Assembly (NCBI GenBank): GCA_964187785.1
Contig: OZ076421.1
Location: forward strand, 43,338,001 to 43,402,000
Direction of reading: 5' to 3'
Source: Amphiscolops sp. MND2022
Lineage: Eukaryota
Length of the DNA stretch: 64,000 nucleotides
Below, one piece after another: positions 1 through 29,693 of this stretch. The position numbers were made by a program, and so were the translations under genes. Below the pieces are notes generated by a model. It saw only the letters and a program-made list of their open reading frames with translations. It was not told where the DNA came from and made no database searches. Every line of letters begins with the position of its first letter. The first letter of the stretch is position 1.

Positions 1-60
1 ATTCACTACAGCAATCATCGAAAACTTTCAATTCGTCACCGTCTAGCCAAAAACAATGCT

Positions 61-2443: not shown

Positions 2444-2454
2444 CAGAAGCGGTC

Positions 2455-2642: not shown

Positions 2643-2659
2643 AGGTGACAGGAGTGGGG
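2643..2659 (+). promoter_or_regulatory. Primer binding site, tRNA-Leu type (first base mutated)
   Basis: AGGTGACAGGAGTGGGG directly after the LTR end; element 2 has TGGTGACAGGAG at the same place. It resembles the complement of the 3' end of eukaryotic tRNA-Leu (TGGTGTCAGGAGTGGGA). Confidence 0.7.
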
Positions 2660-2672
2660 CTCAATCCTTCGT

Positions 2673-6700: not shown

Positions 6701-7690
6701 ACAGGAAATCAGATGCAAATATTATTACTATGGAACAGCAAAACTTCCGAAAATAGGTAAATGAATGCGAAACATGCATCAAAGACAAGACAATTAGCAA
6801 TGAGTTAATAACTCCTGAGCTACTCAATTTACCGGATTGGCCCTCAGGTCCAGAAGACTCAAGGCAAATAGACCTTCTACCAAACCTTCCGCCGAGCGGA
6901 GGATATGAAAATATTATCACAGCTATGGACGTTTTTTCGCGTTATCTTTTTGCTTACCCAGTTACAGACGCATCAGCGACAAATACGGCTAAGGTCATTA
7001 TCGACATCATGATCAAACATACCTATTTGCCAACGACTTTGATTGCCGATAAAGGATCAGCCTTTACTTCAAAATTGGTGGCTGAAATTGCGCAAATTTT
7101 GGGAATCCAAATCAGTTGTGTGACGACAAAACACCCGGAGACCATAGGGAAGCTCGAAAGGACTCATGCAAGTCTCAAAACAAATCTCAAGATGGTTCAG
7201 GGGAGTATAGACATCAGTGGCACAAATATTTACCTCTGGCAGTCCTAAATTACAACACGTCCTACCATTTGACGTTGGGCTGTGAGCCTTTAAAGATATT
7301 CCATGGTCGAATACCCTACAATATTTTAGACCTAAAATTGGGACTCAATCCCAATCCTACAGTTTCACCAACTACTAATTTTGCTGAAGAATTCCAACGC
7401 GGAACGCAAATTCTGAATGATACAACGAGGAAAAACATCTTTTTTGAAGTGCAAGGTATATTATGACCGAAAAGCCAATGCGGCTCCTTTGAAACAAAAT
7501 GATTATTGTTTTAATTTACAACCCATAGTAGATCACCAAAGATCGAAAATCCCATTTCGAGAATTCAGATGGATTGGTCTCTATATAATTGGAAAAGTTT
7601 TATCAAATGACAACTATATCGTCTGAAAACCTAATTCAAACAAAACGCAGAAGTTACACCGTATACGACTACGAAAAGATGAACCGAACG
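3760..7690 (+). pseudogene. pol: Pol of element 1 (aspartic protease, RT with core deleted, RNase H, integrase)
   Basis: LVDTGALSSA protease motif. RT N-terminus FARHPFDMG..FKVKLTP jumps at about 5475 to FLG..RTITP, so YxDD is absent. RNase H LMTD.SF.AAGYAVLIE. Integrase at 6417-7690. Confidence 0.9.
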
Positions 7691-8317
7691 CCCCACTAAG
7701 GGACGTACGACCTGAAGGCAACCTACAGCCATACGACGAAAATATTATTCTTCAAGATGCTTATACATTATTACGTGGAAACGAATTTTGGCGACTTCGA
7801 ATCTGGTTGCCGTCAGGAGACCTATTATTGACCCAGCGAGCACGCCGAAATGAAGTATGACGCTGCTGACTCTACTGAGCTGCCAGATCAAAGTTTTACC
7901 GACGTGGACCTTCGGTCTACCAGACGAGACGTGACTGAAGATTTTCGTCCTGATCGACTGACGAATGAAAGTGACAACGAAACAAATGCTGATGATGCAA
8001 AATCTTTAAGGGAGAGCGATACTACTGTGCCCGAAGTATAAGAAAATGGAAATGACAACATGATTGTAGAAAATGAAAGTCCTTGAGCAAGGAAATATAA
8101 CCTGCGACCTAACCCAACCCCCAACTTTACTGATGAATGCAGATACTAGCCAGATCTATTTATTACCGGTCCAAGCATACTGTTTTGACCATAGGAGTCA
8201 TCTGACTTTAACCAGAAATAACGAACTACTGCAACAAAGGACTATATATAAACATTCTAAACAGAATAAAGACAACACTACAGCAAAAGTTTATTAATGT
8301 ACGTACACTAGGTACAA

Positions 8318-11300
8318 CTAGCCTTTACTGCTGCATTGACGCAGATTTTTCGCAGATTGGCTAACTTCGGAATCAGACAGGTGATGAGTGGGCCGAACAT
8401 TCTTCCTCGAGTAACTAAGAGTACTCGGAGGCTGTTGGACCTTAGTGCACTCAGTTGCTTTCACTTTGCTGCCACTACACTGGTATTTGTCCGAAGGATC
8501 CAGTTTAGATAAAAAATCAGAACGTCCAAACTTATCCAGCCCCAACCACGGATCGTAGGTATCGATCAGTGCCGTGCGACCAAAGGTAGACTCTAAATCA
8601 AGGAACTCTGCGATCGAAGCATCAGTAGTAATTGTACTGATTGAATCCTCAACACTGCTGAAGTATGACTGGACTGGAATGACAACGTCGACCAATTTAC
8701 TTGTGAGGTCTCCTGTGTTGACAGATCCGAATTTGACAACAGGATGCGGCCTAAACGGTTCGTCCAGGCAAAGACAAGCAAGCTTGAAGCATCGCAACAG
8801 AAGCGGTCGGGTCGGTAGAGAAGTCTGAACCATGAGGAATTCCACTGTGTCCGGAATAAGCAGAGTGGGTTGATCGAATTCTGCAAACTTTACACTTAAT
8901 TCGTCTACGAAACACAAGTACTCCTCCTGTGCTAAATCTCTTGATCTTGCAAAAAGTAACCTCGGAGACGGAAGGTCATAAACAATTTGCCAAAGCATTT
9001 GGTAGCCAATGAAAGGAGATTTCAAGAGTATTTTCAGGTCGAAACTCCCTGACCCTTGAGCAATTATGGTCGTAAAGTTGAAGTGACTACGTGTCTCTTT
9101 GAACAGTTGAGTGACGTAACTTCTGGCAAGACGACAGTAATCTTCTCGGGCTTTCTCAGTGACTATTTCCAGAGGTAATTTCTCGCCTTTTCGTTCATGC
9201 AACTCCAATTCTGTTTGAATTTTGCATGCCTGGTCCAATTTTGACCAAATTTTCATACAGTTAAGGAAGACAGTCACACTTAGCGCTGAGGCCGTCGCAA
9301 CATCAAGGTCCAGAGTACTTGCAATATCATCTTCAGTCGGAAGGGATGAGGGCAAGACCATTCGTTTTGCTAGATTGCGTAAGAACAAGCACAACTGCCT
9401 GAAGGCATGGAAGGCCCGGTCCCGTTGTCCACTGAGACTGAAAGAGAAGTGAGTAGTATCTAAATAGGATAAAGGTCACACAATGAAGTCTACACCGACA
9501 AGGACCTTTAGCCGAACTGCGTTGCTATATCCCTTGGAAACATACTGAAGAATTTAATTAGAATGCACGAATAACCCCAACCGACAATTACATGGGATAC
9601 GAATGGTGATAGCAGGGAAACAAGCCAACATCGTCAATAATACTCAAAGTCTCGGATGAGTTTGTAATAGAGCTCCGGTTTCAAGTGAAGAAATGGTCGT
9701 AGACTATTGACCACTCAAGGGATTAGGGTTGATTTCTAACTCCCTGCATTTGCTGTTGCTCTGTGTGGGACAGTAAAGAATCAGTAACGGACTTCCAGTG
9801 AGTTATGAGTTCTTGACACAAACTTGGGATGGGCGGTCCATCTAATTTGCCAGCTTTTATCACCTGTAGGAAGAAACTACATTCAGTGATAGCCAAAATT
9901 AAAAATACCTAAGAAATACGAACTCTAGGTCTCACCTTGACTAATGTTGAAGCAAGGAGCGTCCACTCTTGTTGAAGACTGCCGCTCAAGCTGGTCACCA
10001 GGTACTGTAACACAGAAAAGAAATCTATTCTACCAAATACACTGTAGCTATCTTTATGCGATAATTTTCGGATGGCAACCTCGTTGAACAATGTGGGTCT
10101 TTGGACCCCGTGTCTGGTGAGGGGAGATTTGTCCAGCATTTGCACCAAGTTGTAGGTCCCACCTGAACAGCAGACTGAATCGGCTTCGGTAGAGATCGCA
10201 GCTAACAGGGTGCTCACAAGTCGCAGTTCGGCTGAAGTTCGTTCGCTGGTACCCCCGGTCCGCAAGAGGTACACCCTGCACAATCTGTCCGCTTTCCAGA
10301 AGCGTAGGTGCAAGAGAAGAAACACGTTTCAAATTCGAACAAGAACTGTCCGGACGTAAGGACATCGTTGCCCAGATCAGGGATGATTTGCAGAAACAGA
10401 TGATGGAATAGTACCTGAAAGTCACTATTGGGTTAACCAAATTATATTCTCAACTAAAGATGGTACACTTAGTCTTGGGTAGCTAATTGTACTGGTAGTT
10501 CATTCTGAAGCCTAATGAATGGGACGGACAATCACATATGTGGGGACATGGACCTCAGGTAGAAGTGCGTAAGTGTGACTACTTACCGATAACTTGGTGG
10601 TACTCCAGTCAATATCGCAGAATAATGCTTGGTGGTTGACAATTGTGCCGATGTATTGCCAGAGCTTCCGCAAGACAGCATTATCTCCAGATAATGGGAG
10701 GTAATGGCCAAGGATGGAGATCTGGAGACGATTGCGATTTTGTCGTGACGCTGCTATATGATCGGCGCCAGCCATTGCTTCCTCGTAAAATAGAAATTTT
10801 TCCCCTATGTCAACTAGTTCAGAGTTGATGAAATGAGGCAATTCTAACTGCAACTGGTAATTTGTCAGAACTTTACCGTCTCTGCCTCTAACTTGGTATC
10901 GCGGGTCCTCAATTGTAAGGTACTCGTACCTTCAATGCTGGTCTTTGCGCAAAAGTCTCTAAGTGGAGTAATGGCGCAAAATCTCCTTCGGTCCTTTAGC
11001 CTTGATTGAAACATTACATTTGCAAATTTGACAGTATTTTTTTATTTGGATTCCACTTTGGGTCCATGGGGCCAGAAACAAACGTACGAGTCCATGTCAT
11101 AGACCCAAAGTATTCTTTTTTCCTTATTCAGCCAATTCGTCTTCGTGGGGTTGGTCGACCTCGGGATTTGTTAGTGGCATGTGTCCGTTTACTGGCTTTA
11201 CTTTTTTCCTTCATCGCTTCTCGTTTCAAAGTTGCTAATGTTTGAGGACTGGAACATGTAGGGGACGTAGGCCTTGTAGGTAAGTCTGTAATTCCTTCGG

Positions 11301-12359
11301 AAGAGAATCCTGGTGGGGACGGCAAGGTAATGCTGGACTGAAAGTCCTGTCGCGACTCGGCGTCAGTTGATGCCCCGTGACTACTATCACTATCTCCTGC
11401 CCCGTAGGTCATCACGGAATCGCTAAGGAAATCAGTGTCAATCCCTGGGTCCGCAGTAGATTGAGTCTAATTCCGAGGTTGTACTCGGTTGGGCTGCGTA
11501 ATTTCAGCTGACTCGCCCTTTGCACGACACTGTTTAGCATCTCGAAAGACGCACGGGCACCATCATCCGCTACGATACGTAAGATACTACTGATCTGATC
11601 CTGATTGAAGGCGACAGTTGGGTGACCAAGATACAGGCAAATGGGATTGGTTTCTATGAAACACTGCTTGATAATAGCCCTACTAGAGCCAGAAAGCGAA
11701 ACAGAACCTCTGGCTGCTGGGACGGCTGGTACACTGGATTCATTACTTGAATCATGCGGGCAAGCAATACTGGTATGTTTAGTCGGACAATAAAGAGCTT
11801 GAGCAAGGGTAGACCGTTCAATGGACCTAGTGTCAGTTCCCATACCGAAACGGGAGTCATCGTCAGTTTGAGACCCGTAGTCCATTAGACTCCTATGATC
11901 CCTTTGCTCCTCAGACTCGTTTGCATCAGACCTCGTTTGCCCAGTCTGATCAATCGGTACTTCAGAGGCAAGAATTACTACAGGTTGCTCAGCTGATGTG
12001 GTAATCCCCACTGTATTTGCACTAATGTTTGTCACCTGCGGTTGCTCAGTCTGTTCTTCGGGTCTGTCTAAGAAAATAACTCTGGGAACATCTTCGGGGA
12101 CTTGAGTTTCTGGCATTAGTTCATTCATACCAGGAGTAACAGTGAGAGGGTCACTCAGGCTTGTTTTGTTCTGGTTGGAGATTAAATCGTTGGGACTGGG
12201 TTGGGCAAGTTCAAGAGACTCAACTTTCCGACTTATGTAGGCCTCACAACTTTCGGAGTCAATAGTTGACAACAGTTCAAGTATGGACGTCTTGTCCATT
12301 GATAATTCAGTTGTTTCTGGCTCGGGGATTCCTTCTGCTGATTGTTGGGTAATCTCCAT
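8318..12359 (-). pseudogene. Antisense multi-exon accessory gene: disordered N-terminus, CxxC-H-H zinc finger, hAT-transposase-like body
   Basis: ORFs 11412-12359, 11128-11415, 10512-10853, 9909-10325, 8318-9394. My translation near 11040-10960 gives YCQICKCNVSIKAKGPKEILRHYST. GT-AG introns at 9864-9935 and 9438-9545, and a donor at 10586. Colinear homology to the element-2 gene. Confidence 0.8.
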
Positions 12360-13547
12360 TGGCTCAGAGACATTTTGGATTGGCTGGCCGCTCGTTTTGT
12401 TGAATAAACTGAAAGAAATAAATTTCGCGATCCACTTCCGCTAAAAAGATCCATCTCATCGCATTTGAAAGTCTTTCGAAAGCAAGTTTATTAGTTATTC
12501 ATACCTGTGGTCGAATATTTCACGATGAAGGACGATAAAACGTAGTCAATGGGAAGCCCTGATCAAGCTCAAAATTGACGAAATACTTTGAAAAAGAACC
12601 AACCTGATGTTCGTTTATATTGGCGAGCAGAATTGTAAATCAACATTCAACTGTCGAAGTCGGGAACTGGCAATTGCAAATCTAGTTGACTGAGGTTGTA
12701 TGAGAAAATTCTGGATCAAACTGCAGGATAAACAAGAAATTAAGTCGTTGTAGGTCGAACAGACTTACGGTCCAGAGGATGTAAATCTGCGGGCGATGCT
12801 GCTACACGACGACGAAAATTTGACAAGGTTATACTGTGCTGATTCAGCGGGTTAATCGGCCACAGAGAAATAGTAGCAAGCAGTGGGAACGTAGATTGTG
12901 ACAAAATTTAATTCAACTCAAATGAAGTGTTGTCTGCTGAAATTGTTGCTAAACTGGTTTACTTGTTCTACGTCAGTTCGACTACTAGTCCTTTTACTTA
13001 CATTTACTATTAGTGCAACACTTGACTCTCTACACAATTGATTATATAAATACTGAATTTTTTCATAACAATGCAATAAAAGGCGTCGTGGCTACATGCA
13101 AATTATTTCACTATAATTGCGTTAATAATCCTCTCAACTATACTTTTATCAGGACCACCGGTGTTTCAGAACCTGCCAGTGATGCACTACCGGCTATTAC
13201 TTATTGTAACATACTCTTGATTTCTTTGCTAAAACTACCATCATTTTAATCATTCTCATTGATCTTCACCATCTTTATATTATTTCATTCAAGTTTTCTT
13301 CATTTGTTTATCAGATCGTTTTGATTGGCTTATTAGCCAGAACTAGACGAGTAGACCGCCGGTCTTTGGAGATATTTCACTAGTGAAGATGAGTGATAAT
13401 AAACAATCTGATCACCCATTTACACTCCTTCACTAGCAATTACTACTACTTATGGTGGCCCCAAGGACTTGTCAACTTTACTAGCGGCTTATTTTCAAAA
13501 CAGAATTAGGGAAATAATCTGCTTTATGAGGAAACTCAAAAGATTCA

Positions 13548-14382
13548 ATGGAGAGAGCGGATAAAAATTTCCCCAAGGAGGATTTCCGCAAATTTTGTGG
13601 GTCTCGACCTAAGGTCGATCGGGCTGAGACCGTCATAATATCTGAATTTCACCCTACTAAACAGTTGACTTTTCAAATCCGCAAAAATTGCAAAGAAACT
13701 TTTCTTGGAGAAATTTCGAGAATAAATGTCCTTACAATTTTCAGTGGAGGATCTAATCAACCACTAGTCAGCCTTTCATATTTTTCATCGGATGAAGAAA
13801 TAGTAGTGGATGACTCTCCTTCTGTTACCAAAAAAGAAAGTAGCGACAGCGGCATAGTATTTATTGCCTGTTATTCTCAACAACCGCCCCAAGGCCACAA
13901 GAAGTTGCAGGACGAGGCATGACATACGACTTGCCGAAAAATGAAGATGACTTCTCCCTGTACGATGGACTCTACGGCCCATCGACTAAGGTAGACTCTG
14001 ATCCGGCTGGAGAATTAGTTGAATTAGTCCTTGGCAATAATCCCTTGATAGTACACCTAAACCTACCTACCAACAGCCAATTGCCATGTGTAGTCAGTTG
14101 GAACCCTTGCCAGATACCTCGCAGTCTCCTCCTGCCCATGAATGCGGCCAAAATTTCAACCGTTGGAATGACCCATGGGAGGAGGACGATCAATTTCATT
14201 ACCAGCCAGAGAATGCACATATTAGAGGGGTGCCCGTAAGTACTAGCGGGATTTGCGGTAACCCAAATCAAGTCAGCCAAGGCAACCATGCTGTTTGTGG
14301 TAAGAGTTTCGATACGATCAAAGAAGAAATCGTTTTCGATTACTTGGAAAAAAAACCCACATGGCTGGCGAGACATATTTAG
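13548..14382 (+). pseudogene. Sense accessory ORF(s) before the 3' LTR of element 1 (acidic, Ser-rich, unknown function)
   Basis: Overlapping ORFs 13548-13922, 13919-14239 and 14086-14382 suggest one frameshifted gene. Same position and orientation as ORF 26648-27246 in element 2. Confidence 0.5.
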
Positions 14383-14454
14383 CCCGCTGCAAAAGAAGAG
14401 AAGCGTTTCAAGCAGGTATGGCAGCTGGTTCATTTAGTCTCATCCTTGGGGGAG

Positions 14455-16143
14455 TGTCGCAGGCTGCCGCCTGTGACGGCAACAGATATCAAATTGCTCC
14501 AAATGATACGCCCCTTCCCCCTGGAATACTACCACTGTAGGTCACGTGGACCATCAGTCCTCGACTAGCACATATTTTACAAGCAATTGGAACTTATAAA
14601 CTGGCCTTAGTATAATTTTATACTGTTGCGGACCTCAAGTCCACGCGTCTAAGTACAGCCTTTAGTTAGAATAATATTCTTAGTGCAAGACGTATATGCA
14701 AAACTAGTAAGAATGTGTTCAATTATTGGTTTATTATGATATATGTTTTTTGTCATGTAAACCAGATTGCTGGAAATTTTGATTAGTAACAATAAATGTA
14801 AATTAGCAATTCAATGCAACTGTAGTGCTGATAGGAAACGCGTTAAAGTCCTGGTAACAACTAATCAACTTGGACGCGAATTCCATTACATCTTAACCAA
14901 TCAGCGTTCACTATTTCTTTATTCACTTGTGCTATAGTAGTGCTGTCTACCATTGTTGCCTTCAGCTATTTGGACCGCTGGTCCAGGCACAAATTACATG
15001 TAATATTTACTTTAACGTGAATATGATTAGATCAATATAATGTAAGGATCTACTTCAAGGCTTTATAGTTGAAAGTCGTACCGCCTAACCCCCCTGATAC
15101 CATGACCTATTATAATAATCAATTCCCTGAAGTGATGCTATTTTTAGAAACAACTATATTATTTTTAGAAACAACTATATTGACGTATTGGTGTAATTGG
15201 CCCCAAGACCCTATTAATCCTCAGAAGGTTACTAATTTTATCTCAGTTATAACGTCACAGTGACGTCAGGTCAAAGTTGCTAGCTATTTTGAAGTGATGA
15301 CATCGATAATTTTGCGTGTCATGTCCCCCAGAGTATATATACGAGGACCGCAAGTCCGAGAGGCCACAAAATCATCCTTGTACAACTATCACACGAATCA
15401 CGATTGCTGTTATTTTAGTTCAGAGACTACAAGTCTAATTGAAATATTGATACTAGTGTTGACTATTTGTTCGTTGTTCGTTCACTATTCGTTCACAAGT
15501 TCAGTTGATGATAATACTGAGTTCAAACATTATATTTTTGCTTGGCTCAATCTTGTCTCAATGCTTTCAACTAGAAAGCAAAAGGCACAGGAAAAACGTT
15601 CTAGACAATCAGACGTAATGTCTGATCTGGAAAGCATGAATATGATGTTAGGGAAATACTCACGAAATCACTCAGAGGACAAATTAATTGTAAACCTTGA
15701 GATGGACTCAAAGTCCAATGAGACTAGAGCCCACATGGCTCAGAGTTGTGAAGATTTCAGGTCACTGTTAAACACTGAAAATAGAATAGAAAATGAAATA
15801 ACTTGCGGTACTTCTAGGCTAATCAGTACAGAAGTTTCATTGCAAATATCAAGGAACTTAGACGAACTGAAAAGGGATCTAAACTCCCAAATTACGGAGT
15901 CGATCAATTCGGCAATTCACGAAACTGTATTACCTTCATTACAAAATTCATTGTCAGGACTCAATAGTGGGTTAGGGACAAATGTGGACTCAAGGGCCAG
16001 TAGACTAAGCAGGAACACCGAAGGTAGAAAGCACCAAAGTGCTTGGGGAAACACCCACAAAAAAATTCCAACAAATTTCAACGACCATCCTCATTCTAGA
16101 GAGAGTTCCTTAAACTCCCTGGATGGTCGTGGTGATCATGACA
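14455..16143 (+). repeat. 3' LTR of element 1 (about 1.69 kb)
   Basis: Starts TGTCG after the purine run GGGGGAG (14448-14454) and ends TGACA. Last 188 bp repeated at 2455-2642. First 25 nt are identical to the TSD-defined terminus of solo LTR 43403-44549. Confidence 0.85.
15561..16143 (+). CDS. gag: N-terminal ~194 codons of Gag encoded inside the LTR (orphaned in the 3' LTR)
   Basis: Open frame MLSTRKQKAQEKRSRQ... (part of ORF 15294-16148) runs to the LTR end and stops 5 nt into flanking DNA. In the 2455-2642 copy the same sequence leads into PBS and gag. Confidence 0.7.
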
Positions 16144-16506: not shown

Positions 16507-18632
16507 TGTCACAGTCCGCTCCCGGACTGGATTGCGGTTGTAGACGAGTCAGCTACGGAAGAGGCTATGGTTGTACTGCACACTTACAAAATGGTATTTT
16601 GGATTCTGCCACAATTTAGTTCGTACCACAACTCTCAAATGATTAAATAAACTGTGACTGGAAATACAAAATATCCGTCTGCCTTGCGCAAATCCTGAAT
16701 AAGAAATGAAAATAAAAAATAAAATGATCTAAAATGTTTTCACTCATTTCGCAAGACGTTTTTGCCACGTCAAAATAGTAACATCTCAGTTCTGCCAAGA
16801 AAACTCGTCAACATGACGTTGACAAGTTTATGAAAATTAATTCTGCCAAGAAAACTTGTCAACATGGCGTTGACAAGTTTATGAAAATAGGCAAAATGAA
16901 CGAATTCGCCAGATTAGTCAGGAATTTCATCGCATTGAGGCTGCTAGCTCATAGGGAACGATATTTACGGGTTACCTTAAATTGTAAAACAAATACTTTA
17001 CCAGTATGTTTCACGACTTAAAGATCAAATCTAAGATGTAATTGATACATTGAAACATTGAAACATTGAAACATTGAAACATTGAAACATTGAGTTTCAT
17101 TGGATTAATATACATGACATACATTAAAGTATTCATAAATGTATAGAAAATCCAATGTGGACACAAAATGAGCATCAGTGCTCTTCAAGTTTGTGCCCAT
17201 TCATGATAGAGTAACCCAATAGAGTTGATACATGCAGAGTAACCCAAATTCGTGTCAACTAGCCGTCTTGCACTTTTAACAATAAGTTTAGTTGTCCGCA
17301 AAGGCCGTTTCAAATGGGATTTTATAATTGCAGAGACGGAAAGTCACAGTTCATATCCATAACTAAAGTGTATTTTATACTGAAAATGTATTTTTGCATA
17401 TTTACATTTTTGTACTTGAGATTTCCAGACAATGTTTCATAATCGTGCTTGTGACCATATTTTTGTACCAGTTCATCGTTGCTGTTCATTAAAATTGCTG
17501 TATTACTGTTGCTGTTGAATAAGTGCTGATGTACAAGTAACAATTTTTTATAATAGTCAACTTGTCGCAATTGTCGCGTCAATCTAAAGTTATCGTGTGT
17601 GTACTAATATGTTTTGTTGATAATCATAAACGTTAAATTTGCCTTAATCTAGTATTTCACTCATTAACCTCTTCAAAATATCTTCCTAGCATCGCCCAAA
17701 TAATCGTAATTTGGAAATGAGTCATCGCGTTTGATCAAGCTGAATTTCAAAATCAGGTATTAGTTGATCACGCAGCGTCATCTCAGCGTCAATTTTCCGC
17801 GAACCAAAGCAGTAAAACAGGTAATCATTTCCGGTTTGACAGACTGAAGTAATATCTACTTCCTGCTTGGGAGGAAGCAAAAGGACGCCGGGATGAAATA
17901 ATATGCTCGTGATAGATGACTAATAGGGAAAACTATTGCCGTGTCTCAAAATTTGACGAAATGTCGATGCAAATTTGGGATCCTAATAATTTTTTCACCG
18001 TAAAAACAGAAAATGACTAATTGTTCGAAAGAAGTTGGGAATATGTACGTGATCAAATGATGCTAGGAGGGTATATATATGATGTGTAACCTTATTCAAG
18101 GGACTCAGTCCTTTTCAAGCGCTATAATTCAGTTGTTTCAACTTGTTTTGCCCAAACCTCATTCTCAACTCTGTCAAAACCAGAAGACAAATTTGAATTC
18201 TTTGAGAAACAAGCTTTCCCATCAATATGTCAACAACAAGAAGTCAAAAGAGAAGAAACACTCAGCGAGAGACTGAAGACAACGTAAGTGAAGGTTTCAT
18301 TTCACCAATAAATATAGAGAGCTCTCGTTCTTCGAACCAGGATACCGACGTGGCAGGCCCGTCGAGACCAAAATCTCCTAGGGTAGAAAATTGCTCCTTG
18401 GAGAGTTTGAGAGCTTCTTTAAAAGAGGAGATTACGTCTGAGATCAAAAATCTTCTTCTAGAATCCCAAAGAGAAATGTTGAGGCTTCTAAGATCTGAAA
18501 CAGGAAAAAATGTAAGAAATAGCACTGTTGATGAAACGGAAAATGAAACAAGGAGCTTCCATACTCCAACGAGAAAAGTACGAATCAACTCTACCGAAAA
18601 TAACGACCCTGACACGAACGTAAATCGTAACA
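16507..18632 (+). repeat. 5' LTR of element 2
   Basis: Long direct repeat of 27299-29693 apart from indels, TG...CA termini, TATA-like TATATATA near 18074. Confidence 0.95.
17041..17093. repeat. (ATTGAAAC)n microsatellite, about 6 units, in the 5' LTR only
   Basis: Directly visible tandem 8-mer; absent from the 3' LTR. Confidence 0.9.
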
Positions 18633-19685
18633 TGGTGACAGGAGCTCTAACCGACTCCACAAATCACCCGAAAAGACCAAAAATAAGGTCTCAGAGCCAA
18701 CCAGCGCCAAAAGAGCGTCCCGCAGTAGCTAGAACACTGTTTGGAGCAGAAAGAAACGACAACCCCGCGTTACCTATGCCAAAAGCACTAACGGCCTCAC
18801 TCCCTACATTTGACGGGAAAACCGAAAAATTCGAACTTTTCGAGGATCTTTTCCGCAACAACATCAAAATGTATCCGCACCTCACGGAACTCCAAAAAAT
18901 CAACTATTTTCACTCCTTGCTACGAGGAGACGCCCTACAAGCGTTTTGCAATATAGAAGATGCGAAAAAAGATTTGCTAGAAGAAATCATGACGATTTTT
19001 AAACGCCGTTTTGGCGAATATTTACCAATGGCAAAAGCCAGACAAGAATGGGACACACTCCCCAACACAAACACCAACACAAACCTACGTGAACTTTTGG
19101 ACGTCCTCCAAAAAATTGCAAAGGAAGCCTTCGGTTCGGAAGCCCAACAATTCATTGACAAGGCTATATACGCCAAGATGCCTGATCACGTCAAAAAGAT
19201 ACTTAACAGGGCATATCTTGAAGACAAGCCGTAGAGTGACATTGTACTCCACCTTGAAAGGGAGATGCGGCTCAATGGCCTCGGTGTACCAGAGGATGTC
19301 AACTTAGTACCGCTAAATGATATAGAGTCAGCCGAAACAAAGCCCGAGACCAAACCAAACAAAAATACCACCCAAAATACAACACAAAACCATAAAAAAG
19401 GATACTGCTTGTACTGCAATAAGTTTGGCCATTTCAAAGCAGAGTGTCGAAAACTGAGAAGGGATGAATGGCAACAGACAAAGAAGAACAACGGCCAAAC
19501 CAAAAATAACGCAGGCACCACACATAAATGTGATACATGCGGAAAACCTCACAAAACGGAAGATTGATGGAATGGAGCCAACTTGGCCAACAACCCGAGA
19601 CCTAAACGACATTTCCAATGAGAAGAACACTGATACTTCCACCCAGCAATCGACAACTAATTTCGGAGACGAATCAAAAAACTAG
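18227..19685 (+). pseudogene. gag: Gag of element 2, initiating inside the LTR
   Basis: ORF 18227-19234 starts 406 nt before the LTR end and crosses the PBS in frame (...NRN|MVTG...). Knuckles CLYCNKFGHFKAEC and CDTCGKPHKTED. Internal stop at 19234 plus frameshifts. Confidence 0.9.
18633..18644 (+). promoter_or_regulatory. Primer binding site (tRNA-Leu type)
   Basis: TGGTGACAGGAG immediately after the LTR-terminal CA. Confidence 0.8.
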
Positions 19686-22204
19686 TTACGCCGCTCCTGC
19701 GTTTCGGGGAAACCGTAGACGCGAGGGCGTATCCACCAAAAGACCCCCTCACTACTTACACAGATAACTCAACAATAGAGTGTGACGGTACTCCAACAGG
19801 GGACTGGTTGAGACAACAAGCACTCGCAGCAAAAAAAAAGACCAATACGACAACCAGAAAGAGAGGCAATCTACACTCAAGACAAAGACTACAGAGACGA
19901 CCATACACGTCATGCCAACCCCATCATCCAGCTCCCTTGCTCCACCAAAGAACAAACAGCTAAAACCCAAATAGACCTAAATGAAAATGCCACCGGCGAC
20001 CACTCATCGCCACAAACGAACGAAGAAGATACTCACGGTCCCACCAGGTTACCTATCTTACACGACGATCTCCCCACCTCCCTTAATTCGATCAAAGAGT
20101 ACATAACTGAAAAAGATGGGGATACCTACATACTTCTGCACTCGACCATAGTCCTCAAGAACAGAAGACGAATGCTGTACTTGCCACTCGAGTTCGGCGA
20201 AACAACCATGGACGGCCTCGTTGACTCAAGATTGAACGTGCAAACGCCCAACTCGAACAACCTATCGCCACTGCTGTTATTCAATTCAATATCGGAACAA
20301 ATACGTTCACCGACACCTTTGTCATCCTATCAAAGACGTCATTCCCCATAATTGGAGTGAATTTTATGAGAAACCACCAAGCCGTGATAGATACGGCCAA
20401 CGGGAGCATCACCTTCCCACATGTCGAAATGACATTAGTCATGACAGACGAAAAGAAAAACTGTAACCCCAAACCTCTCCAAATCATGGCCGAAGGAAAT
20501 CAAACGCTGCTACCACAACAAACAACAACAGTAAAAGCAATAGTCATAACCACCAATGCAACCGGCATCACAGGTGCAGTACAACCGCTACCACAGTTTG
20601 ATGAAACAGCCACCATCATCGTTGCACCAGCTTTGGCACAGCTCATAACAAACGAATCAACCTCCGAATAGCCAACTTGACAGATTTCTCTCACACCATA
20701 AAAAACCATACCAAACTGGCAGAATTGCAAATTTTTAGGCCAAAGGACACCAATTAGATACGACTCATAGACGTCGCAACACTGACCACCCTACAAGACC
20801 CAGATGACACGCACATGTATGTAAATGAGCTCATGAAATCCACAAATAACGAACAAAACGACAAAAACATCTGGTTCCCAACACCCGAAAACCCGGGAAA
20901 CGAAGATGAACACACGCCAATACAACGGCGAAAATTAAAAGAAATCAGAGAACTCATGAAGAAAGAACAACTCGACCCCACCAAAGATCCATAATCAAGG
21001 AAAAAGAGTTCCTCGATATGTTCAAATGGGAAGGATCGCAGATTGAGGGAAACGACGAAAAACAGCTTGAGCAAACGATAGTTGAATACAACTACATTTT
21101 TGCGCGTCACAGACTCAACATCGGCATCAACAATAGCTTCAAAGTGAAACTGACGCCAAAAGACGAACGCCCCATATACACACAAAGCCTACCAGTACCA
21201 ATCAACTTGAAAGAAGACCTAACAGTCGAACTAGCGCTCATGCACAGGTATGGCATAATCACGACATTACCATTTTCAAAATATGCCAGCCCGATTTTCG
21301 CACAACGTAAATCAAATGGTAAGCTACGTCTACTTGTCGACCTGCGAAAAATCAACGCACTGATATCTGACGGCTACATCAACAACAATAATCCAGTCAG
21401 CACCCTGTCAGACGCAGCTCAACACCTAGCTGGGCAAAAAATGTTCTGTCAAATAGATTGCTCTCAAGCATATCACTGCCTGCAAATGGTGGATCAAAGA
21501 TCCATCGAAATGCTAGCGTTAAACTTTGCAAGCAGAACCTTCGCATACAAACGACTGACACAAGGACTGAGCAGAGCTTTGTCAGCATTTTCAAGCTTCA
21601 TGAGAGAATATTTGGATAAAGTAATCAAAACTGACCAGTGCGCGCAATATGTGGATGATATTGGAATAGATGCCAACTCCGTGACGCAACTGATACGAAA
21701 CATTCGAGCTGTCTTTGAATGCATCAGACAAGCAGGGCTTGAACCATCCAATGACAAGTGCCATTTTGGAGTGACTGAGGACGAATTCCTTGGAAGAACG
21801 ATCACCCCACAAGGAATTGCCCCCCAAGACCACAAAATCCAGAAATTCAGAAATCAAAGAAGCAAGTACAAAGATACATAGGCTTTGTCAACTACGACCG
21901 CAACTATATCCCGCGGTTGTCAGAAAAGTTACTCGGTTTCTACGAGCTACTGAAAGCAGACAAACAAATCAAGGTCACAGAGGAATTGCTAGATAACTAC
22001 AAAGCGATCAACGCAGCACTAGCGGAGGCATGTGGATTGGCTCTCAAACAACCTATCACAGGACGACTATTTGTCCTAATGACGGATGCAAGTTTTCGCG
22101 CCTCGGGATATCCGCTAATGATCGAAGAAGAGAATGACAAAAAACTCAATTCCAAAAAAATACTTTTGCTCCTGTAGCATTTGGACTGAAGATGTCAATT
22201 TATT
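19686..22204 (+). pseudogene. pol: Pol of element 2: degenerate protease, RT, truncated RNase H; integrase absent
   Basis: RT motifs SKYASPIF, LRLLVDLRKIN, FCQIDCSQAYH, QGLS, QYVDDIG. RNase H LMTDASFRASGY. Sequence leaves pol just after KMSIY at about 22204. Confidence 0.92.
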
Positions 22205-22291
22205 AGGTTTTTCCAAACAAAAGCAGAACGTTTTGCGTTATTTCTGGAAGCAATTGGAAATAATCAGTACATATACAATACAACAACAGTT

Positions 22292-25200
22292 TCAAACCAC
22301 ATGAATAATAAAATACACTAGTCTTTTGACGACGAGGCTCCACTTTTCTTCACTGACTTGGTAGACCCTTTTTTTCTTCGACTCAGCATCGACAGCTTCC
22401 CTTGCAGATCTTTTTCGACCAAGCAACGACCCCAGACTACTGTACTTCTGCCCTTTACTAGGACAACCGGAACTCGTTCCACTGTCACCCTGAGCTGCAA
22501 CGACTGCACCAGCAACAGAGGACTCGCCACTTTCTGAATAAGTCACAGTAGTCAAATCAGAATGACCAGCAGACTGAGCACGACTACCATGTATGTTTGC
22601 GACACGAAGTCGGTGGTACGACTCGTCCTTTTTCTGCGCCACATAAGCCTCGAACAATGACGTATAACGACTCACGAAGCCACTCTGCCCACCACTGCAA
22701 ATCCTGCTCAATGGATCAAACTCGGTACAGGACATAAAAGAATACGAGTTGACGATAGCATCGCGAATACATTCCATAGTGTGCTTGGTAAAAATGATTT
22801 CTGTGTGTAATTTGGCGACAGCACCCAGCTCTGAACACCACGGATACAAGATGATACTACAAGCTTTGGCACAGTGCAACCTGACAGATCAATATCAACG
22901 ACAGGAGAATTACGTTGAGGTTTTACAACAACCAGACAGCACAACTTGAATACTCGACATAAGTTTTTTCGAGCTAAATAACTGTAATCCGATAACGGAA
23001 ACGTCCCCAAATCGGGGATCTCGTCAACATGTTGATTGCTAGTATCATGTCGGACACGATCATCAACAACAAAAGATGAAAATTCCTCAATCGCAGCACC
23101 AGCCTCAACGTCAGTCACCACTTTGCATCGTTTCAGTAATGCAACCAAACAATTGAACAGTCCAAAGATATATTCATCACCTCCTCCAAGCAATATTTCA
23201 GGACAAAAACAATAGATATACTGCATGAAATCCGAGGAAGCAGGGTATTGCATCAGAACAATATCCACAAACCGATCAATAAAATCGGGACACTGACGAT
23301 GGAACTCTCGTGCCTCACCACCTCTGATGCCCCACAAGACACTGCCAAACTCATAATTCATCAGCAAATCATCACACGACAACTTCTCCATGTAGGCAAC
23401 TTTGGAAACGTCCATGTAATCTTCCCACGAGTTCAAAGGGGGCAGGGATGCACTTTTACGGCTACGAGACAATAATCCATATACGAATTGACTCAGTTCC
23501 ATATAAAAATGGAAGCCATAATCAGATCGTCCAGCACATCGCTTCTTGAAGGGAACGGCATCTGCAACACAACAAGAAGCAAATACAACACTGTCCCGCA
23601 ACTGTAACGACGAGTAAATGAGAAAGATGACGATGCTATAAAGACAACAGCACAACAAATACACGACAATATAAAATAACACGAGACTTACGGAGATCAA
23701 GAATGTGACCAAGAAGGCCAAGTCGTATTACAATCGTGTTGTCGCTGCTCACCAACCAGTCCAGTCCTCGCATCTGCAACAAATCACAACCAAATTAAAT
23801 ATAACCATATAAGAATTCACGTCGCCTCGCCCAACCCGATTCCATGGCACAACCATAACCTTACACAACTCCTTATTTTAGGTAAAGGACATCTCACCTT
23901 ATCAACCTCACATCTAGAATGTCCAGGAGCCGTGTATCGCACAAACTCTCGTACAATTGTCCAACTGGCCACGAGATCAGCCACCACCTGTCGCAGATCT
24001 GCAAACGTCACGCGACCAGAGAGCACACAGCGCTGAAGGGTACGAGCCCCGTCCATCCACGATTCCTGAAGGGCACCCCGCAACCGCAACATCAGAAAGT
24101 CAATCATCAATGACGTATCCAGCCTACCGAAGACCTCTTGCTCAGCCTGACGATATTCTCGTAGAAAATCATCTTCAGTAAACTCTCGACAATAAAAAAA
24201 TTGGCGTCCATCGACACGGTTGTCTTTCAAGACACGCAGAAGTGACGTACTACACCCTGGCATGGCAGAAGCAATTGGCAAGACGACACACTGTCCACAA
24301 CACGAGAGATGCCAGCCAACTCCGCAACAGGCACACGCTAACCAGCGGACTCCACCCGAACACACACAGAAAAAAGAGAATCGTCGTCCCAAGTGTGGAC
24401 AAAGCACTCATGAGTTGTAGCATCACTGACGAAGAAGACGCTGTACTCACGGAAGGATGCGATCCGAGAAACAAGCAATCGCAACACTCGCGGGAACAAA
24501 GCCTGGCAGATCAGGGACTAAAACAGAATAAAACACCATAAACACCATAAGTGACCTTCCCTAGCCCACCCAACCACCGATACACGCCCACTTACTGCAA
24601 GTCATAAATACACAAAACAACTCACCAAGGTTTCAGCACGATCCCACTTCAGGCTGAACAGAGGCTCCTCGGGACCAAGAGTAGCACGAAAACACCCCCA
24701 CAACTTCCTCAGTAGGGTGTAACTCCCTCCACAACGGAACAGTTCTAACACGCTGTTAATCATCGTCATGAGTGGAACAGAAGAGTCCACACGAGTGCAT
24801 GAAGGAAGAAGATCCTCCGGGAAGCTAAAACCCTCCGCCAGACCCTTACTTGGACGACTCATGTAATCAGACACTTGGGCCTCACTCAGTTCGATAGGAT
24901 CCATGAGCCGATTGAATATGGGAAGATCATGTTGCACCCGATACGTCACATCCAACTGCCAATGACGTTTCCCAAAGAAGTGACGCGAGAACTCCGATGC
25001 ACCATGAGATTCCATCGACACATCCCGATGACAGATTTTGCAGAAAAACAATTTGTCGGACCCCGTATTCGAACCACTCGCAAACAGTTGATAGATAGGG
25101 TTATCACCAACCATATCGCGACGGAGTCGATTCCGGGAACTGTTAACCCCTCTGCGCTGATGTTGTGGCGCCACAACTCCTTCCAAACTGGTCTCCACTC

Positions 25201-26181
25201 GGGACACAAGCTCTTGAAACCCTACAAACATCAAACACCACTTACCGAATAAAGAGTAACAACACTCAGACATCAATCCCTGGCCATTGAACACCCCCCT
25301 TCTCTTCAACTACTCTACAGACAGGAAATGAAACAACAAAATACTAACGAGTAACGAGGGGCTCCATCGTCCGATGTTCCAACTCAGTGGCCAATTTCTC
25401 TCCAAGCCTCACGGCTTGACGGGGTGTACATGGCAATCCGGACGTGTCAACTGGGACACTCCCACTGCTCTCAAGCTCGAATCGCAAAGTACGCGAGGCT
25501 GTTTTTGAGGCTGTTCTCTCTTCATGGCCCCGAGAGCGCAAACACCTCGATGAACTTGGTGGAGCGCAACCAGAGCGCAACATTGAACCTACACACAAAA
25601 CAACCAATTTCCACAAAGGCTCCACACCGGAAACGTCGAATCAACAAGACATAAAACTTCACAAAATATGAAAACATAGGAAAAAGACACTGAACGCATA
25701 CACTAAAATCGGCTCTAACCTCGCCCAAGCTCTGCACTAGTGGGCAACACGTTGGAGCCCACGTTAAATTCAGACAGGAAAGACGGAAAACATGGTGAAG
25801 TCGTTTTCTGCCCATCAACAACAACAGCTGCTGCAGCAGACAACGGAACGACCTCCACTGCAGAGAGATCTGCGGGCAAGGAGATTCCAGAAACAACTGC
25901 TGGCACCACAAGAACGGAACCATGTAAATCAGACCCTGAAACAACATTCCCAAATCGACGTGTCAGAAAACCTAAGCTGTGAAAATGCGAAACAGAAAAG
26001 GCCTATTTGACAGTAGTAATATTCACAAAAGCTTAATGGATTGGGGAACGACAAACTTACCAGCAATAGGATGTACAGTCGAAGGGTTAGCATCACTCTC
26101 CCGAACGTCTGCTTCTGAGAAGAGGAATTGAGTCTCGTGACCGCTCTGGAAGCCAGATTCAACACGGCGCGGAGACGACAT
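22292..26181 (-). pseudogene. Antisense multi-exon accessory gene of element 2 (zinc finger, hAT-transposase-like)
   Basis: ORFs 24602-25309 (FFCKICHRDVSMESHGASEFSRHFFGKRH), 23817-24407, 22708-23721, 22292-22879. GT-AG introns at 25977-26060, about 24518-24625, 23774-23897 and 23602-23691. Candidate ATG at 26181. Confidence 0.8.
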
Positions 26182-26242
26182 CTTTCTTTTTAACAAGGCG
26201 ATCTAAAAAGAGGAAGAGATGAAAACAACAACCAAAACTGAC

Positions 26243-26531
26243 GTCATCATAACGGCGACAAAAATGAAAGTTGACTAATCACCAACGAAATTGATGTCGA
26301 CATAACGCCGACAAAAAGGTCATTAGGGTTAAGAAGTTAATCCTGTAATCTACAATGACGTCCCATAACGGTGACAAAGTCAGAAGTTAGCTAAGCTAAC
26401 GAAGTGACGTCAGCATAACGTTGACATGTTTGGCTAAGTGAAATTTTTCAATTTACAGCCAATAAAAATGCGATGTTGACATAGCGTCAACACCTGGGAA
26501 TTAAAAGGATTAAAAAGACTGATCAACCAAT
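26243..26531. promoter_or_regulatory. Putative divergent promoter: five 6-5-6 spaced palindromes, TGACGTCA and two CCAAT boxes
   Basis: Motifs at 26243, 26296, 26360, 26409 and 26475; CCAAT at 26459 and 26527. Lies between oppositely oriented ATGs at 26181 (-) and 26648 (+). Confidence 0.6.
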
Positions 26532-26647
26532 CAGAATAGAGGGATTTTTCCCAATATTCTCCTTAATCCTAAGTAATCCGAAAAATCATTGTGGAAAGAA
26601 CAGAGTTAAAGTGCAGCTACAAAAAACCTCCAATTCATCACAACCAG

Positions 26648-27246
26648 ATGGCTAATCTTAAAGATATCTATGAGCTAATAGACATCTCATCAGAAAGCGA
26701 GAACGATGAAATTTTGGAAAGGGCCTCTACACCGCTTCCTAAAGATACGTTCCCAAACATCAGGGGGTAATCCTAGAAACATCACACTCCTCCATCGAAG
26801 CTAACGCAGATTTAGAAGAGGATCTCAACTCATCTTTAGACTCTATAGACATGGATTGCAAACGACTCAAACTGGATAAGAGCGTCGAGACGGTAGAATC
26901 AGGAGAACATCCAAACTCTCCCGGGAAATATGAGGATGGGGAGATAATTGAGAGCCCAGAAAGCCCTGACGAATGCACCATCAACACAACGAACTCTGGA
27001 GTCTTCATAGTAGAGAGCCCAAAGCAAACTAGCTCTCAATCAGTAGACAGCGCGATCATAACAGAATACCTGGAACAAGTTGCAAAAGCAGACGCAGATT
27101 CGTACTTCGTCACTCCTCCGGGCCCACTGAAGAGAATAAATACTATCTCTGCAAGTCTACTAAATGATCTAGAAGAAAGAAGGGAAGTATGCGTACCCCC
27201 AGAGAAGCCCGAGGTGAAAAACAGCCACGGCCGTTACCCTAGTTAA
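26648..27246 (+). pseudogene. Sense acidic accessory ORF of about 200 codons with one frameshift, unknown function
   Basis: MANLKDIYELIDISSESENDEILE... from 26648 shifts frame near 26765 into the frame of ORF 26851-27246. D/E/S-rich; ends 52 nt before the 3' LTR. Confidence 0.55.
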
Positions 27247-27298
27247 CCGTTCCAAGTTGGTCTCCCTGGATGTGCTGCACGACCCATGACAGTGGCCC

Positions 27299-29693
27299 TG
27301 TCACAGTCCGCTCCCGGACTGGATTGCGGTTGTAGACGAGTCGGCTACGGACGAGGCCATGGGTGTACTGCAAAACTCACAAAAGGTATTTTGGATTCTA
27401 AACTCTCATAAGATTAAATAAAATGTGACTGGAAATACAAATTATCTGTCTGCCTTGCGCAAATCCTGAATAAGAAATGAAAATAAGAAATAAAATGATC
27501 TAAAATGTTTTCACTCATTTCGCAAGACGTTTTTGCCACGTCAAAATAGTAACATTCACCACCTGAAAACTAAATTAAGACACGTTTTAAAACAAAGAGA
27601 ACATTAGCCAATCTAAATGAAAACATATCCTAAATCATCTCCGAAAGGAACATCAATCAGATCGAAAAAAATATCAGATGGCACGTCAGAGAAACTAAGC
27701 CTGTTCTAAGAAAGGCAGCTTTATTACTCTTTGAACAGCAATTAGTGTGGTGTAGGACGTCAATATTGCGCTGAGCAAACAATACGGCGGAAGAAATAAG
27801 AATACATGTATATTTGTCGTCAGTAAGTCGCAGACAAGTTTGAAGGTATATCAATTGACGTCACTGCCTCGCCTATGCGTACCAGAAAATCATTCCAATT
27901 ATCCGCCTATGTTAATAATTTTACTAGAAATCATTCCAATTTACCGCCATTGTGACGTCACCACACCGGCAGCTAGCTAGAAAATCATTCTAAAATACTC
28001 GTCAGCATTACATCAAACTAGTCAAAATGTCAGTTCTGCCAAGAAAACTCGTCAACATGACGTTGTCAAGTTTATGAAAATTAATTCTGCCAAGAAAACT
28101 TGTCAACATGGCGTTGACCAGTTTATGAAAATAGGCAAAATGAACGAATTCGCCAGATTAGTCAAGAATTTCATCGCATTTAGGCTGCTAGCTCATAGGG
28201 AGCCATATTTACGGGTTACCTTAAATTGTAAAACAAATACTTTACTAGTATGTTTCACGACTTAAAGATCAAATCTAAGATGTAGTTGATACATGCAGAG
28301 TAACCCAAATTCGTGTCAACTAGCCGTCCTGCACTTTTAACAATAAGTTTAGTTCTCCGCAAAGGCCGTTTCGAATGGGATTTTATAATTGCAGAGACGG
28401 AAAGTCACAGTTCATATCCATAACTAAAGTGTATTTTATACTGAAAATGTATTTTTGCATATTTACATTTTTGTACTTGATATTTCCAGACAATGTTTCA
28501 TAATCGTGCTTGTGAGCATATTTTTGTACCAGTTCATCGTTGCTGTTCATTAAAATTGCTGTATTACTGTTGCTGTTGAATAAGTGCTGATGTACAAGTA
28601 ACAATTTTTTATAATAGTCAACTTGTCGCAATTGTCGCGTCAATCTAAAGTTATCGTGTGTGTACTAATATGTTTTGTTGATAATCATAAACGTTAAATT
28701 TGCCTTAATCTAGTATTTCACTCATTAACCTCTTCAAAATATCTTCCTAGCATCGCCCAAATAATCGTAATTTGGAAATGAGTCATCGCGTTTGATCAAG
28801 CTGAATTTCAAAATCAGGTGTTAGTTGATCACGCAGCGTCATCTCAGCGTCAATTTTCCGCGAACCAAAGCAGTAAAACAGGTAATCATTTCCGGTTTGA
28901 CAGACTGAAGTAATATCTACTTCCTGCTTGGGAGGAAGCAAAAGGACGCCGGGATGAAATAATATGCTCGTGATAGATGACTAATAGGGAAAACTATTGC
29001 CGTGTCTCAAAATTTGACGATATGTCGATGCAAATTTGGGATCTTAATAATTTTTTCACCGTAAAAACAGGAAATGACTAATTGTTCGAAAGAAGTTGGG
29101 AATATGTACGTGATCAAATGATGCTAGGAGGGTATATATATGATGTGTAACCTTATTCAAGGGACTCAGTCCTTTTCAAGAGCTATAATTCAGTTGTTTC
29201 AACTTGTTTTGCCCAAACCTCATTCTCAACTCTGTCAAAACCAGAAGACAAATTTGAATTCTTTGAGAAACAAGCTTTCCCATCAATATGTCAACAACAA
29301 GAAGTCAAAAGAGAAGAAACACTCAGCGAGAGGCTGAAGACAACGTAAGTGAAGGTTTCATTTCACCAATAAATATAGAGAGCTCTCGTTCTTCGAACCA
29401 GGATACCGACGTGGCAGGCCCGTCGAGACCAAAATCTCCTAGGGTAGTAAATTGCTCCTTGGAGAGTTTGAGAGCTTCTTTAAAAGAGGAGATTACGTCT
29501 GAGATCAAAAACCTTCTTCTAGAATCCCAAAGAGAAATGTTGAAGCTTCTAAGATCTGAAACAGGAGAAAATGTAAGAAATAGCACAGTAGATGAAACGG
29601 AAAATGAAACAAGGCGCTTCCATACTCCGACGAAAATAGTACGAATCAACTCTACTCAAAATAACGACCCTGACACGAACGTAAATCGTAACA
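27299..29693 (+). repeat. 3' LTR of element 2, including an orphan Gag N-terminus (29288-29693)
   Basis: Direct repeat of the 5' LTR. ORF 29288-29755 equals the Gag N-terminus up to ...NVNRN and then reads into flanking DNA. Confidence 0.95.

What the first reader, a model, noticed from the sequence alone, without database searches (positions are those of the whole stretch)
26243..26491. A 6-5-6 spaced palindrome arrayed in the internal divergent promoter and repeated in both LTRs of element 2
Seen: GTCATC-ATAAC-GGCGAC (26243), GTCGAC-ATAAC-GCCGAC (26296), GTCCC-ATAAC-GGTGAC (26360), GTCAGC-ATAAC-GTTGAC (26409) and GTTGAC-ATAGC-GTCAAC (26475), spaced 49-66 bp, between the antisense and sense accessory genes. 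The LTRs carry GTCAAC-ATGAC-GTTGAC and GTCAAC-ATGGC-GTTGAC (16807, 16858; 28051, 28102). Inference: this is a site for a dimeric DNA-binding protein that would co-regulate the LTR and accessory promoters. The element's own zinc-finger protein is the obvious candidate, by analogy with VANC proteins of VANDAL transposons that bind motif arrays to counter silencing.
Basis: partly seen in the sequence, partly recalled or inferred. Interest (0 to 1): 0.72.

Follow-up and report, generated by a model that had tools for sequence, protein, structure and literature searches.

The report
Retrotransposon clades carry private DNA signatures
A large group of animal retrotransposons carries an extra zinc-finger gene, and each branch of the group is studded with its own short symmetric DNA word, clustered in its promoters, which suggests, without yet showing it, that these elements make a protein that recognises and regulates their own copies.

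Summary
The motifs are real (one half-site misread, one unit a base short) and element-specific: 3,577 exact genome matches against 9 for the control; 30 of 30 checked lie in this Gypsy family; 19 of 20 diverged copies keep the array. It is not a simple 6-5-6 site: the spacer is conserved and the unit holds a second axis, CG-N9-CG, which is enriched about threefold along the whole element, pol included. Element 1 in the same window has a homologous antisense zinc-finger gene but a different dyad, GAC-N5-GTC (32 sites against 2.8 expected), and lacks the element-2 motif; a further clade has GCC-N6-GGC. The dyads behave like double-stranded DNA sites, not hairpins. Best reading (0.55): the spliced antisense protein binds its clade's dyad as a dimer and regulates the LTR and internal promoter, working like foamy-virus Tas or plant VANC/TnpA without being one. 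Against: no binding or expression data, only two motif changes on the tree, finger residues vary while the motif stays, and no sign of CpG methylation, so the anti-methylation part of the VANC analogy is unsupported.

The parts
26240..26494 (+). Array of five same-orientation units (about 20 bp each) between two head-to-head start codons
16804..16877 (+). Two units in the 5' LTR, 51 bp apart (tandem 51-bp repeat)
28048..28121 (+). Two units in the 3' LTR
16507..18632 (+). 5' LTR of element 2 (TG...CA); lacks about 455 bp present in the 3' LTR; the gag frame starts inside it (ATG 18227)
18633..18650 (+). Primer-binding site starting TGGTGAC (tRNA not identified)
18227..22177 (+). gag and truncated, broken pol (RT, start of RNase H; no integrase in this copy)
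   Evidence: intact relatives PR-RT-RH-IN
22292..26181 (-). Spliced antisense accessory gene (broken in this copy); first intron donor kept in 30 of 30 copies, acceptor in 29 of 30, ATG in 16 of 30
24962..25042 (-). C-x2-C-x16-H-x5-H zinc finger of the antisense gene
26648..27246 (+). Sense accessory gene, acidic Ser-rich product, broken in this copy; ATG kept in 26 of 30 copies
26459..26555 (+). Three CCAAT boxes beside the array (kept in 29, 27 and 22 of 30 copies)
27299..29693 (+). 3' LTR; flanking 5-mers GCAAG / GTAAG (target-site duplication, 4 of 5)
16507..29693 (.). Dispersed CG-N9-CG dyads over element 2: 65 against 22.6 at other gaps; 55 against 21.6 with array and LTR units removed
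2457..16139 (.). Element 1 (sister clade): homologous antisense gene (8318-12440, minus) and its own dyad GAC-N5-GTC, 32 against 2.8, e.g. 13354 (internal) and 14549, 14631, 14973 (LTR)

Best explanation
The array is the densest form of a clade-specific self-recognition signal of a Gypsy superfamily. Shown: each clade carries a spliced antisense gene with a conserved C2H2 finger, and a two-fold symmetric DNA word of fixed spacing scattered every few hundred bases along the element and clustered in the LTR and in the region between the two head-to-head accessory genes. Inferred: the antisense protein (possibly a catalytically dead transposase derivative) binds that word as a dimer on double-stranded DNA, coats copies of its own clade in trans, and through the clustered sites switches on or keeps open the LTR and the internal promoter, including its own (feedback). 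Whether it activates, blocks chromatin silencing or represses is not settled; activation or anti-silencing is the more likely because the sites sit beside CCAAT boxes and are kept by short derivatives that have lost the gene.
For: Double dissociation: element-1 clade GACY-NNN-RGTC 71 observed / 1.7 expected and element-2 motif 1 / 0.3 in 6 copies; element-2 clade GTCnnC-N5-GnnGAC 94 / 0.7 and element-1 motif 3 / 8.7 in 20 copies; neither in the other 34 kb of the window. Further clades: CG-N9-CG in L194-L198, GCC-N6-GGC among the top five dyads in 7 of 8 loci L199-L206. Motif follows the finger-exon tree: the three CG-N9-CG clades form one branch, the GAC-N5-GTC and GCC-N6-GGC clades the other (100/100). 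The signal in three intact pol frames survives synonymous-codon shuffling: 39, 28, 24 against 13.9, 13.1, 10.9. Half-sites in dyads are better kept between diverged copies: 0.63 against 0.31 (element-1 clade), 0.68 against 0.53 (element-2 gag-pol). The fourth positions vary independently (C.A 29, C.G 26, T.A 17, T.G 19) and G.U variants are not favoured. Zinc ligands invariant in 16 of 16 aligned exons of both clades. Short derivatives with no antisense-gene match in the stretches held keep the array block and have 22-34 CG-N9-CG per 3 kb against 1-14 at other gaps. An unrelated Gypsy fragment in the window shows no dyad (3 kb).
Against: No binding, expression or chromatin data. Three motif states on the tree are only two changes, and any element protein or host factor inherited with the clade would give the same pattern. 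Within the element-2 clade the finger's helix residues vary (MESRGAxEF, IATKGIREI, MQSRGAREF) while the array stays the same (hits lie 1-2 kb from arrays listed, e.g. C1:34.137 Mb, C1:23.186 Mb). The finger's weak Pfam matches are mostly U1/matrin-type fingers, often RNA-binding (E 0.001-2.5, all under cut-off). For element-2 gag-pol the control gaps N11 and N12 give nearly the same conservation gain (0.66, 0.65) as N9. Units are only moderately better kept than their spacers (0.946 against 0.883; 0.94 against 0.85, inflated by choosing units by pattern). GCC-N6-GGC is significant in 3 of 5 loci tested singly and absent from the top list in L201. Array units overlap the host CRE word TGACGTCA (26240, 26405; recalled label).
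Confidence: 0.55

Rival explanations
1. Host transcription or chromatin factors bind the sites; each clade has adapted to a different host factor (for the element-2 array a bZIP factor on TGACGTCA/TGACG, or a CpG-pair reader).
For: CRE-like words overlap the array and recur in the 3' LTR; the motif is unchanged while finger residues vary; GGACYNNNRGTCC has 13,317 genome sites against 1,943 control and their family membership was not checked.
Against: Three differently spaced dyads in sister clades, each absent from the others and from the non-family 34 kb of the window; 30 of 30 checked matches lie in the family; sites inside coding frames are unusual for host enhancer sites (inference).
Confidence: 0.2
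2. Another element protein (integrase, Gag, or the acidic sense-gene product) reads the dyads on the cDNA, for instance to mark self DNA for nuclear entry or against autointegration; the zinc-finger protein does something else.
For: Even spread along the element, pol included, suits a coat on the cDNA; all element genes share the clade tree, so co-variation does not single out the finger.
Against: Clustering next to CCAAT boxes and in U3-like LTR positions; the sense product is acidic with few basic residues (D+E 0.15-0.17, K+R 0.06-0.09 in 5 copies); Gypsy integrases are known to read LTR tips, not internal words (own knowledge).
Confidence: 0.15
3. The units are small RNA hairpins (packaging or export signals) in the genomic RNA.
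For: Several window units fold as 5-nt-loop hairpins of -3.5 to -10.7 kcal/mol; position 4 of the 6-5-6 form co-varies between unit types.
Against: Independent fourth positions and no G.U bias in the element-1 clade; CG-N9-CG is a 2-bp 'stem'; 5 of 9 window units fold better on the antisense strand.
Confidence: 0.06
4. Neutral by-product: tandem duplication of a promoter piece plus shared ancestry.
For: Array length varies by duplication of an A+B unit (3-8 units in most copies) and LTRs hold 1-3 copies of a 51-bp unit.
Against: Spacers in the window are unrelated; dispersed dyads have different inner sequences (131 distinct for element-1 clade) and survive codon shuffling.
Confidence: 0.04

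Closest known systems
VANC proteins of Arabidopsis VANDAL elements (PMC5735166, passages read)
   Same: Element-encoded accessory gene; short motif enriched in one family and rare in sister families; same-orientation arrays that grow and shrink by tandem duplication.
   Different: VANDAL is a Mutator DNA transposon of plants; VANC motifs are non-palindromic and lie in non-coding regions; VANC removes DNA methylation. Here: animal Gypsy element, spaced dyads also inside coding frames, no CpG decay seen, no binding shown, no sequence likeness found.
Transposase-derived regulators TnpA and AtMu1 (bioRxiv 10.64898/2026.08.24.746577, abstract and one passage read)
   Same: Sequence-specific regulation of cognate copies by a transposase or a catalytically dead derivative; would fit if the antisense protein is hAT-derived.
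   Different: Shown for plant DNA transposons; the words retrotransposon and LTR do not occur in its main text. Transposase origin of the protein here is not established.
Foamy-virus Tas (PMC4929722, abstract read)
   Same: Element-encoded DNA-binding regulator acting on both the LTR and an internal promoter that drives the accessory genes.
   Different: Tas is a sense-strand gene of an enveloped retrovirus; here a multi-intron antisense gene, head-to-head accessory genes, no env, and dyads along the whole element.
Plant Retand/Grande/RIRE2 antisense ORFs (PMC11963269, PMC7264820, passages read)
   Same: Gypsy elements with a conserved antisense ORF between pol and 3' LTR, own internal promoter, family-specific repeat arrays, suspected DNA-binding role.
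   Different: TRP28 domain, flowering plants only, no cognate motif identified; no TRP28 match here.

Membership tests
Ty3/Gypsy LTR retrotransposon | LTRs TG...CA, PBS, target-site duplication | tested here: met
   (5-bp duplication exact in L069/L070, 4 of 5 in the window)
Ty3/Gypsy LTR retrotransposon | pol order protease-RT-RNase H-integrase | tested here: met
   on relative L072; the window copy is truncated
VANC/VANDAL system | Family-specific short motif enriched in cognate elements, in arrays that turn over by tandem duplication | tested here: met
VANC/VANDAL system | Mutator-type host element and VANC protein homology | tested here: not met
   host element is Gypsy; no Pfam family at cut-off for any antisense exon
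VANC/VANDAL system | Protein binds the motif | not testable with these tools
   needs EMSA, DAP-seq or ChIP
VANC/VANDAL system | Removes DNA methylation from cognate copies | tested here: inconclusive
   CpG transitions equal to GpC controls (0.048-0.049 against 0.044 at over 95% identity), CpG o/e 0.82-0.94 inside and outside elements: no sign of methylation to counter; no methylome seen
hAT transposase derivative | N-terminal BED/SPIN-DOC-type finger | tested here: inconclusive
   Atlas features 0.88-0.90 to zf-C2H2_12, zf-BED and FAM200/ZBED5 clusters, recognition under threshold; no BED match in Pfam
hAT transposase derivative | RNase H core with DDE and C-terminal dimerisation domain | tested here: inconclusive
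   middle exon shows a strand/helix pattern that recalls the hAT core with the acidic residues not kept (likeness recalled, from no call); no Pfam, PDB-sequence or fold support (models pLDDT 52-55; the middle exon was not folded)
Retand-type antisense ORF elements | TRP28 domain, plant host | tested here: not met
   no PF04195 match
Foamy-virus Tas system | Same sites in LTR and internal promoter | tested here: met
   sequence level only
Foamy-virus Tas system | Tas homology, env-bearing retrovirus | tested here: not met
   no such Pfam match in exons or sense product

The most novel reading that the evidence does not exclude
An animal LTR-retrotransposon superfamily captured a DNA transposase, kept it as an intron-rich antisense gene, lost its catalysis and uses it as a private DNA-binding factor; factor and dyad diverge together, so each clade writes its own barcode through its whole genome, coding sequence included, to regulate or shield only its own copies. 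This would be a VANC/TnpA-like self-recognition system evolved independently in a retroelement of animals.
Probability: 0.3. Interest if true: 0.85.

Novelty: new variant of a known kind. Interest (0 to 1): 0.7.

Why it matters
Element-encoded, sequence-specific regulators are documented for plant DNA transposons and complex retroviruses; antisense accessory genes of LTR retrotransposons have remained without function (PMC7264820, PMC11963269, passages read). Here several sister clades in one genome offer matched protein-motif pairs, so the question of what such genes do becomes directly testable by a swap experiment. If true it shows a route by which retrotransposons build private gene-control circuits and may help explain their success in this 1.07-Gb genome. 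The protein family is wide: 1,033 clusters at 50% identity match the C-terminal exon profile, with no Pfam name. Searches listed no paper describing these elements or motifs; most subscription papers and Repbase-type annotation were not searchable.

Tried and rejected
Structure: AlphaFold models of the C-terminal exon and finger exon were low-confidence (pLDDT 52, 55) and gave no clear match in VIA-align or Foldseek; this excludes nothing. Pfam, PDB-sequence and Atlas searches of the C-terminal and middle exons gave nothing usable. No long named homologue was found (weak evidence). No RNA holder was listed; this is no evidence on expression. Earlier-finding look-ups returned nothing. No tRNA gene in the window. 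Rejected: free 5-bp spacer (conserved); simple tandem repeat in the window copy; codon or helix-period artefact for CG-N9-CG (absent from homologous frames of the other clades); protection of CpG from methylation decay as the source of the dyads (decay equal in and out of dyads at high identity, 0.088 against 0.109 at 85-95%; the element-1 dyad has no CpG). Recalled look-alikes (RFX, YY1, MYB, W-box words) were considered and not tested. The host animal was not identified; a recalled likeness to acoel repeats is unverified.

Full report
Observation. A degenerate form gives 7 window matches against 0.00 by chance. In the own genome (G000, 1.07 Gb) it has 3,577 exact matches against 9 for the reversed pattern; 30 of 30 first-listed matches have flanks that align to element 2 (about 8 places, 30 of 3,577 tested).

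The element. Element 2 (16507-29693) is a Gypsy LTR retrotransposon: TG...CA LTRs of about 2.1-2.4 kb into which the gag frame already reaches, a PBS, a 5-bp flanking duplication, and pol order PR-RT-RH-IN in an intact relative. The window copy is broken and lacks integrase. Between pol and the 3' LTR lie a multi-exon antisense gene (ATG 26181) and a sense gene (ATG 26648); the array fills the 467 bp between them, beside three CCAAT boxes. The first intron's donor and acceptor are kept in 30 and 29 of 30 copies, the two ATGs in 16 and 26 of 30. That this is a divergent promoter is inferred from layout; no expression data were obtained.

Conservation. All 30 closest loci (one is the window itself) hold units in the same order; 19 of 20 copies chosen across subfamilies (finger exon 69-94% identical) keep the array, the twentieth being interrupted. 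Over 56 stretches (a few the same copy twice) strict units number 3-5 in 48, 6-8 in 4 and 0-2 in 4. Units are kept better than spacers, but not dramatically: 0.946 against 0.883 (p 0.003) and 0.94 against 0.85 in 11 diverged copies.

What the motif is. The five-base 'spacer' is conserved and the unit contains two overlapping palindromes; the second has the core CG-N9-CG. CG-N9-CG is not confined to the array: 65 against 22.6 at other gaps in element 2, 55 against 21.6 without array and LTR units, 35-44 against about 14 in three gag-pol regions, and 39, 28, 24 against 13.9, 13.1, 10.9 after synonymous-codon shuffling. The rest of the window shows no peak.

Sister clades. Element 1 has a homologous antisense gene (E 6e-6; finger found by profile) and a different dyad, GAC-N5-GTC: 32 against 2.8 in the window, 71 against 1.7 for the stricter form in 6 other copies, while the element-2 motif is absent there and the reverse holds in element-2 copies. 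GGACYNNNRGTCC has 13,317 genome sites against 1,943 control (membership unchecked). Searches with distant homologues led to three more clades: two (5 loci, with near-identical pairs) share CG-N9-CG without the long unit, one (8 loci) has GCC-N6-GGC in internal region and LTR, among the top five dyads in 7 of 8 and significant singly in 3 of 5. On the finger-exon tree of 20 rows the CG-N9-CG clades form one branch and the other two the second. This is two motif changes, not a statistical test of co-evolution.

DNA or RNA. In the element-1 clade the positions next to the core vary independently (C.A 29, C.G 26, T.A 17, T.G 19) and G.U forms are not favoured: a symmetric site for a dimer on double-stranded DNA, not a hairpin. 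Half-sites in dyads are kept better than the same words elsewhere, clearly in the element-1 clade (0.63 against 0.31) and less cleanly in element-2 gag-pol (0.68 against 0.53; control gaps N11 and N12 give 0.66 and 0.65). Short derivatives with no match to the antisense gene in the stretches held keep the array block and are the richest in CG-N9-CG, which fits a factor supplied in trans by full elements or by the host.

The protein. The finger is C-x2-C-x16-H-x5-H with invariant ligands. The Atlas gives weak likeness to fingers of hAT-derived proteins (0.88-0.90); Pfam gives only sub-threshold, mostly U1/matrin-type matches. The middle exon has a strand/helix pattern that recalls an hAT RNase H core without its acidic residues (recalled), but no search or fold supports this. 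A transposase origin stays a lead. The C-terminal exon profile matches 1,033 clusters at 50% identity, some without a close match in this genome, so the family occurs in other genomes too.

Results against the reading. Finger helix residues differ among subfamilies that share the same array. CpG transitions are no higher than GpC controls and CpG o/e is 0.82-0.94, so nothing suggests methylation to counter. Units overlap the CRE word. Co-variation cannot tell the finger protein from integrase, Gag, the sense product or a clade-adapted host factor.

Mechanism and odds. Element-encoded antisense protein binding its clade's dyad and regulating LTR and internal promoter 0.55; host factors 0.2; another element protein 0.15; RNA hairpin 0.06; neutral duplication 0.04. 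It works like Tas (PMC4929722, abstract) in site layout and like VANC (PMC5735166, passages) or TnpA (10.64898/2026.08.24.746577, abstract and one passage) in family specificity, but belongs to none of them. Plant antisense ORFs (PMC7264820, PMC11963269, passages) are the nearest in layout; rotifer ORF3s (PMC5408684, passages) and the Arabidopsis TE product atlas (PMC13547354, passages) describe other accessory genes. PMC9911081 (passages) was read for background only. Searches listed no description of this system; supplements were not read, and repeat libraries in them could already name these families.

Verdict. Real, element-specific, and the visible tip of a clade-specific dyad code in an unnamed accessory-gene superfamily; the binder is inferred. 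New variant of a known kind; interest 0.7.

Noticed in passing
window 18227-18632 and 29288-29693; also 15561-16139 (element 1): The gag reading frame begins inside the LTR, about 135 codons before the PBS, in both clades.
   Followed up: partly
window 27556-28010: 455 bp of the 3' LTR, with several TGACGTCA-like words, is missing from the 5' LTR; the gap is bounded by a short repeat (GTCAAAAT).
   Followed up: no
L051-L055 (G000:C1, 10.064-10.070 Mb), L040-L041: Short non-autonomous derivatives that keep the internal array block and very dense CG-N9-CG.
   Followed up: partly
window 1-2457 and 6357-8811: 97.5% identical 2.46-kb duplication within element 1 covering integrase and the end of the antisense gene; 200 N also lie in the window.
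   Followed up: no
window 4569-5162: Weak dUTPase match (E 7e-4, under cut-off) in element-1 pol between protease and RT.
   Followed up: no
window 26648-27246; L166, L171, L186, L194: Sense accessory product: acidic, Ser-rich, with a Cys/His-containing end that runs into the start of the 3' LTR; no Pfam match; a candidate co-activator.
   Followed up: partly
window 36984-37239: Satellite of 13- and 10-bp units rich in TGACGTCA / GATGACAT.
   Followed up: no
window 46973-49115: Cluster of direct and inverted repeats (122-bp arms at 47315-47594), MITE- or Helitron-like, unclassified.
   Followed up: no
window 30669-31639: Perfect 485-bp tandem duplication.
   Followed up: no
window 61000-64000 and 56832-57263: An unrelated Gypsy-type integrase fragment without dyad enrichment, and a weak endonuclease match suggesting a LINE remnant.
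   Followed up: partly
P0115-P0117, P0204: Homologues of the antisense protein from other assemblies; P0204 has no close match in this genome.
   Followed up: partly
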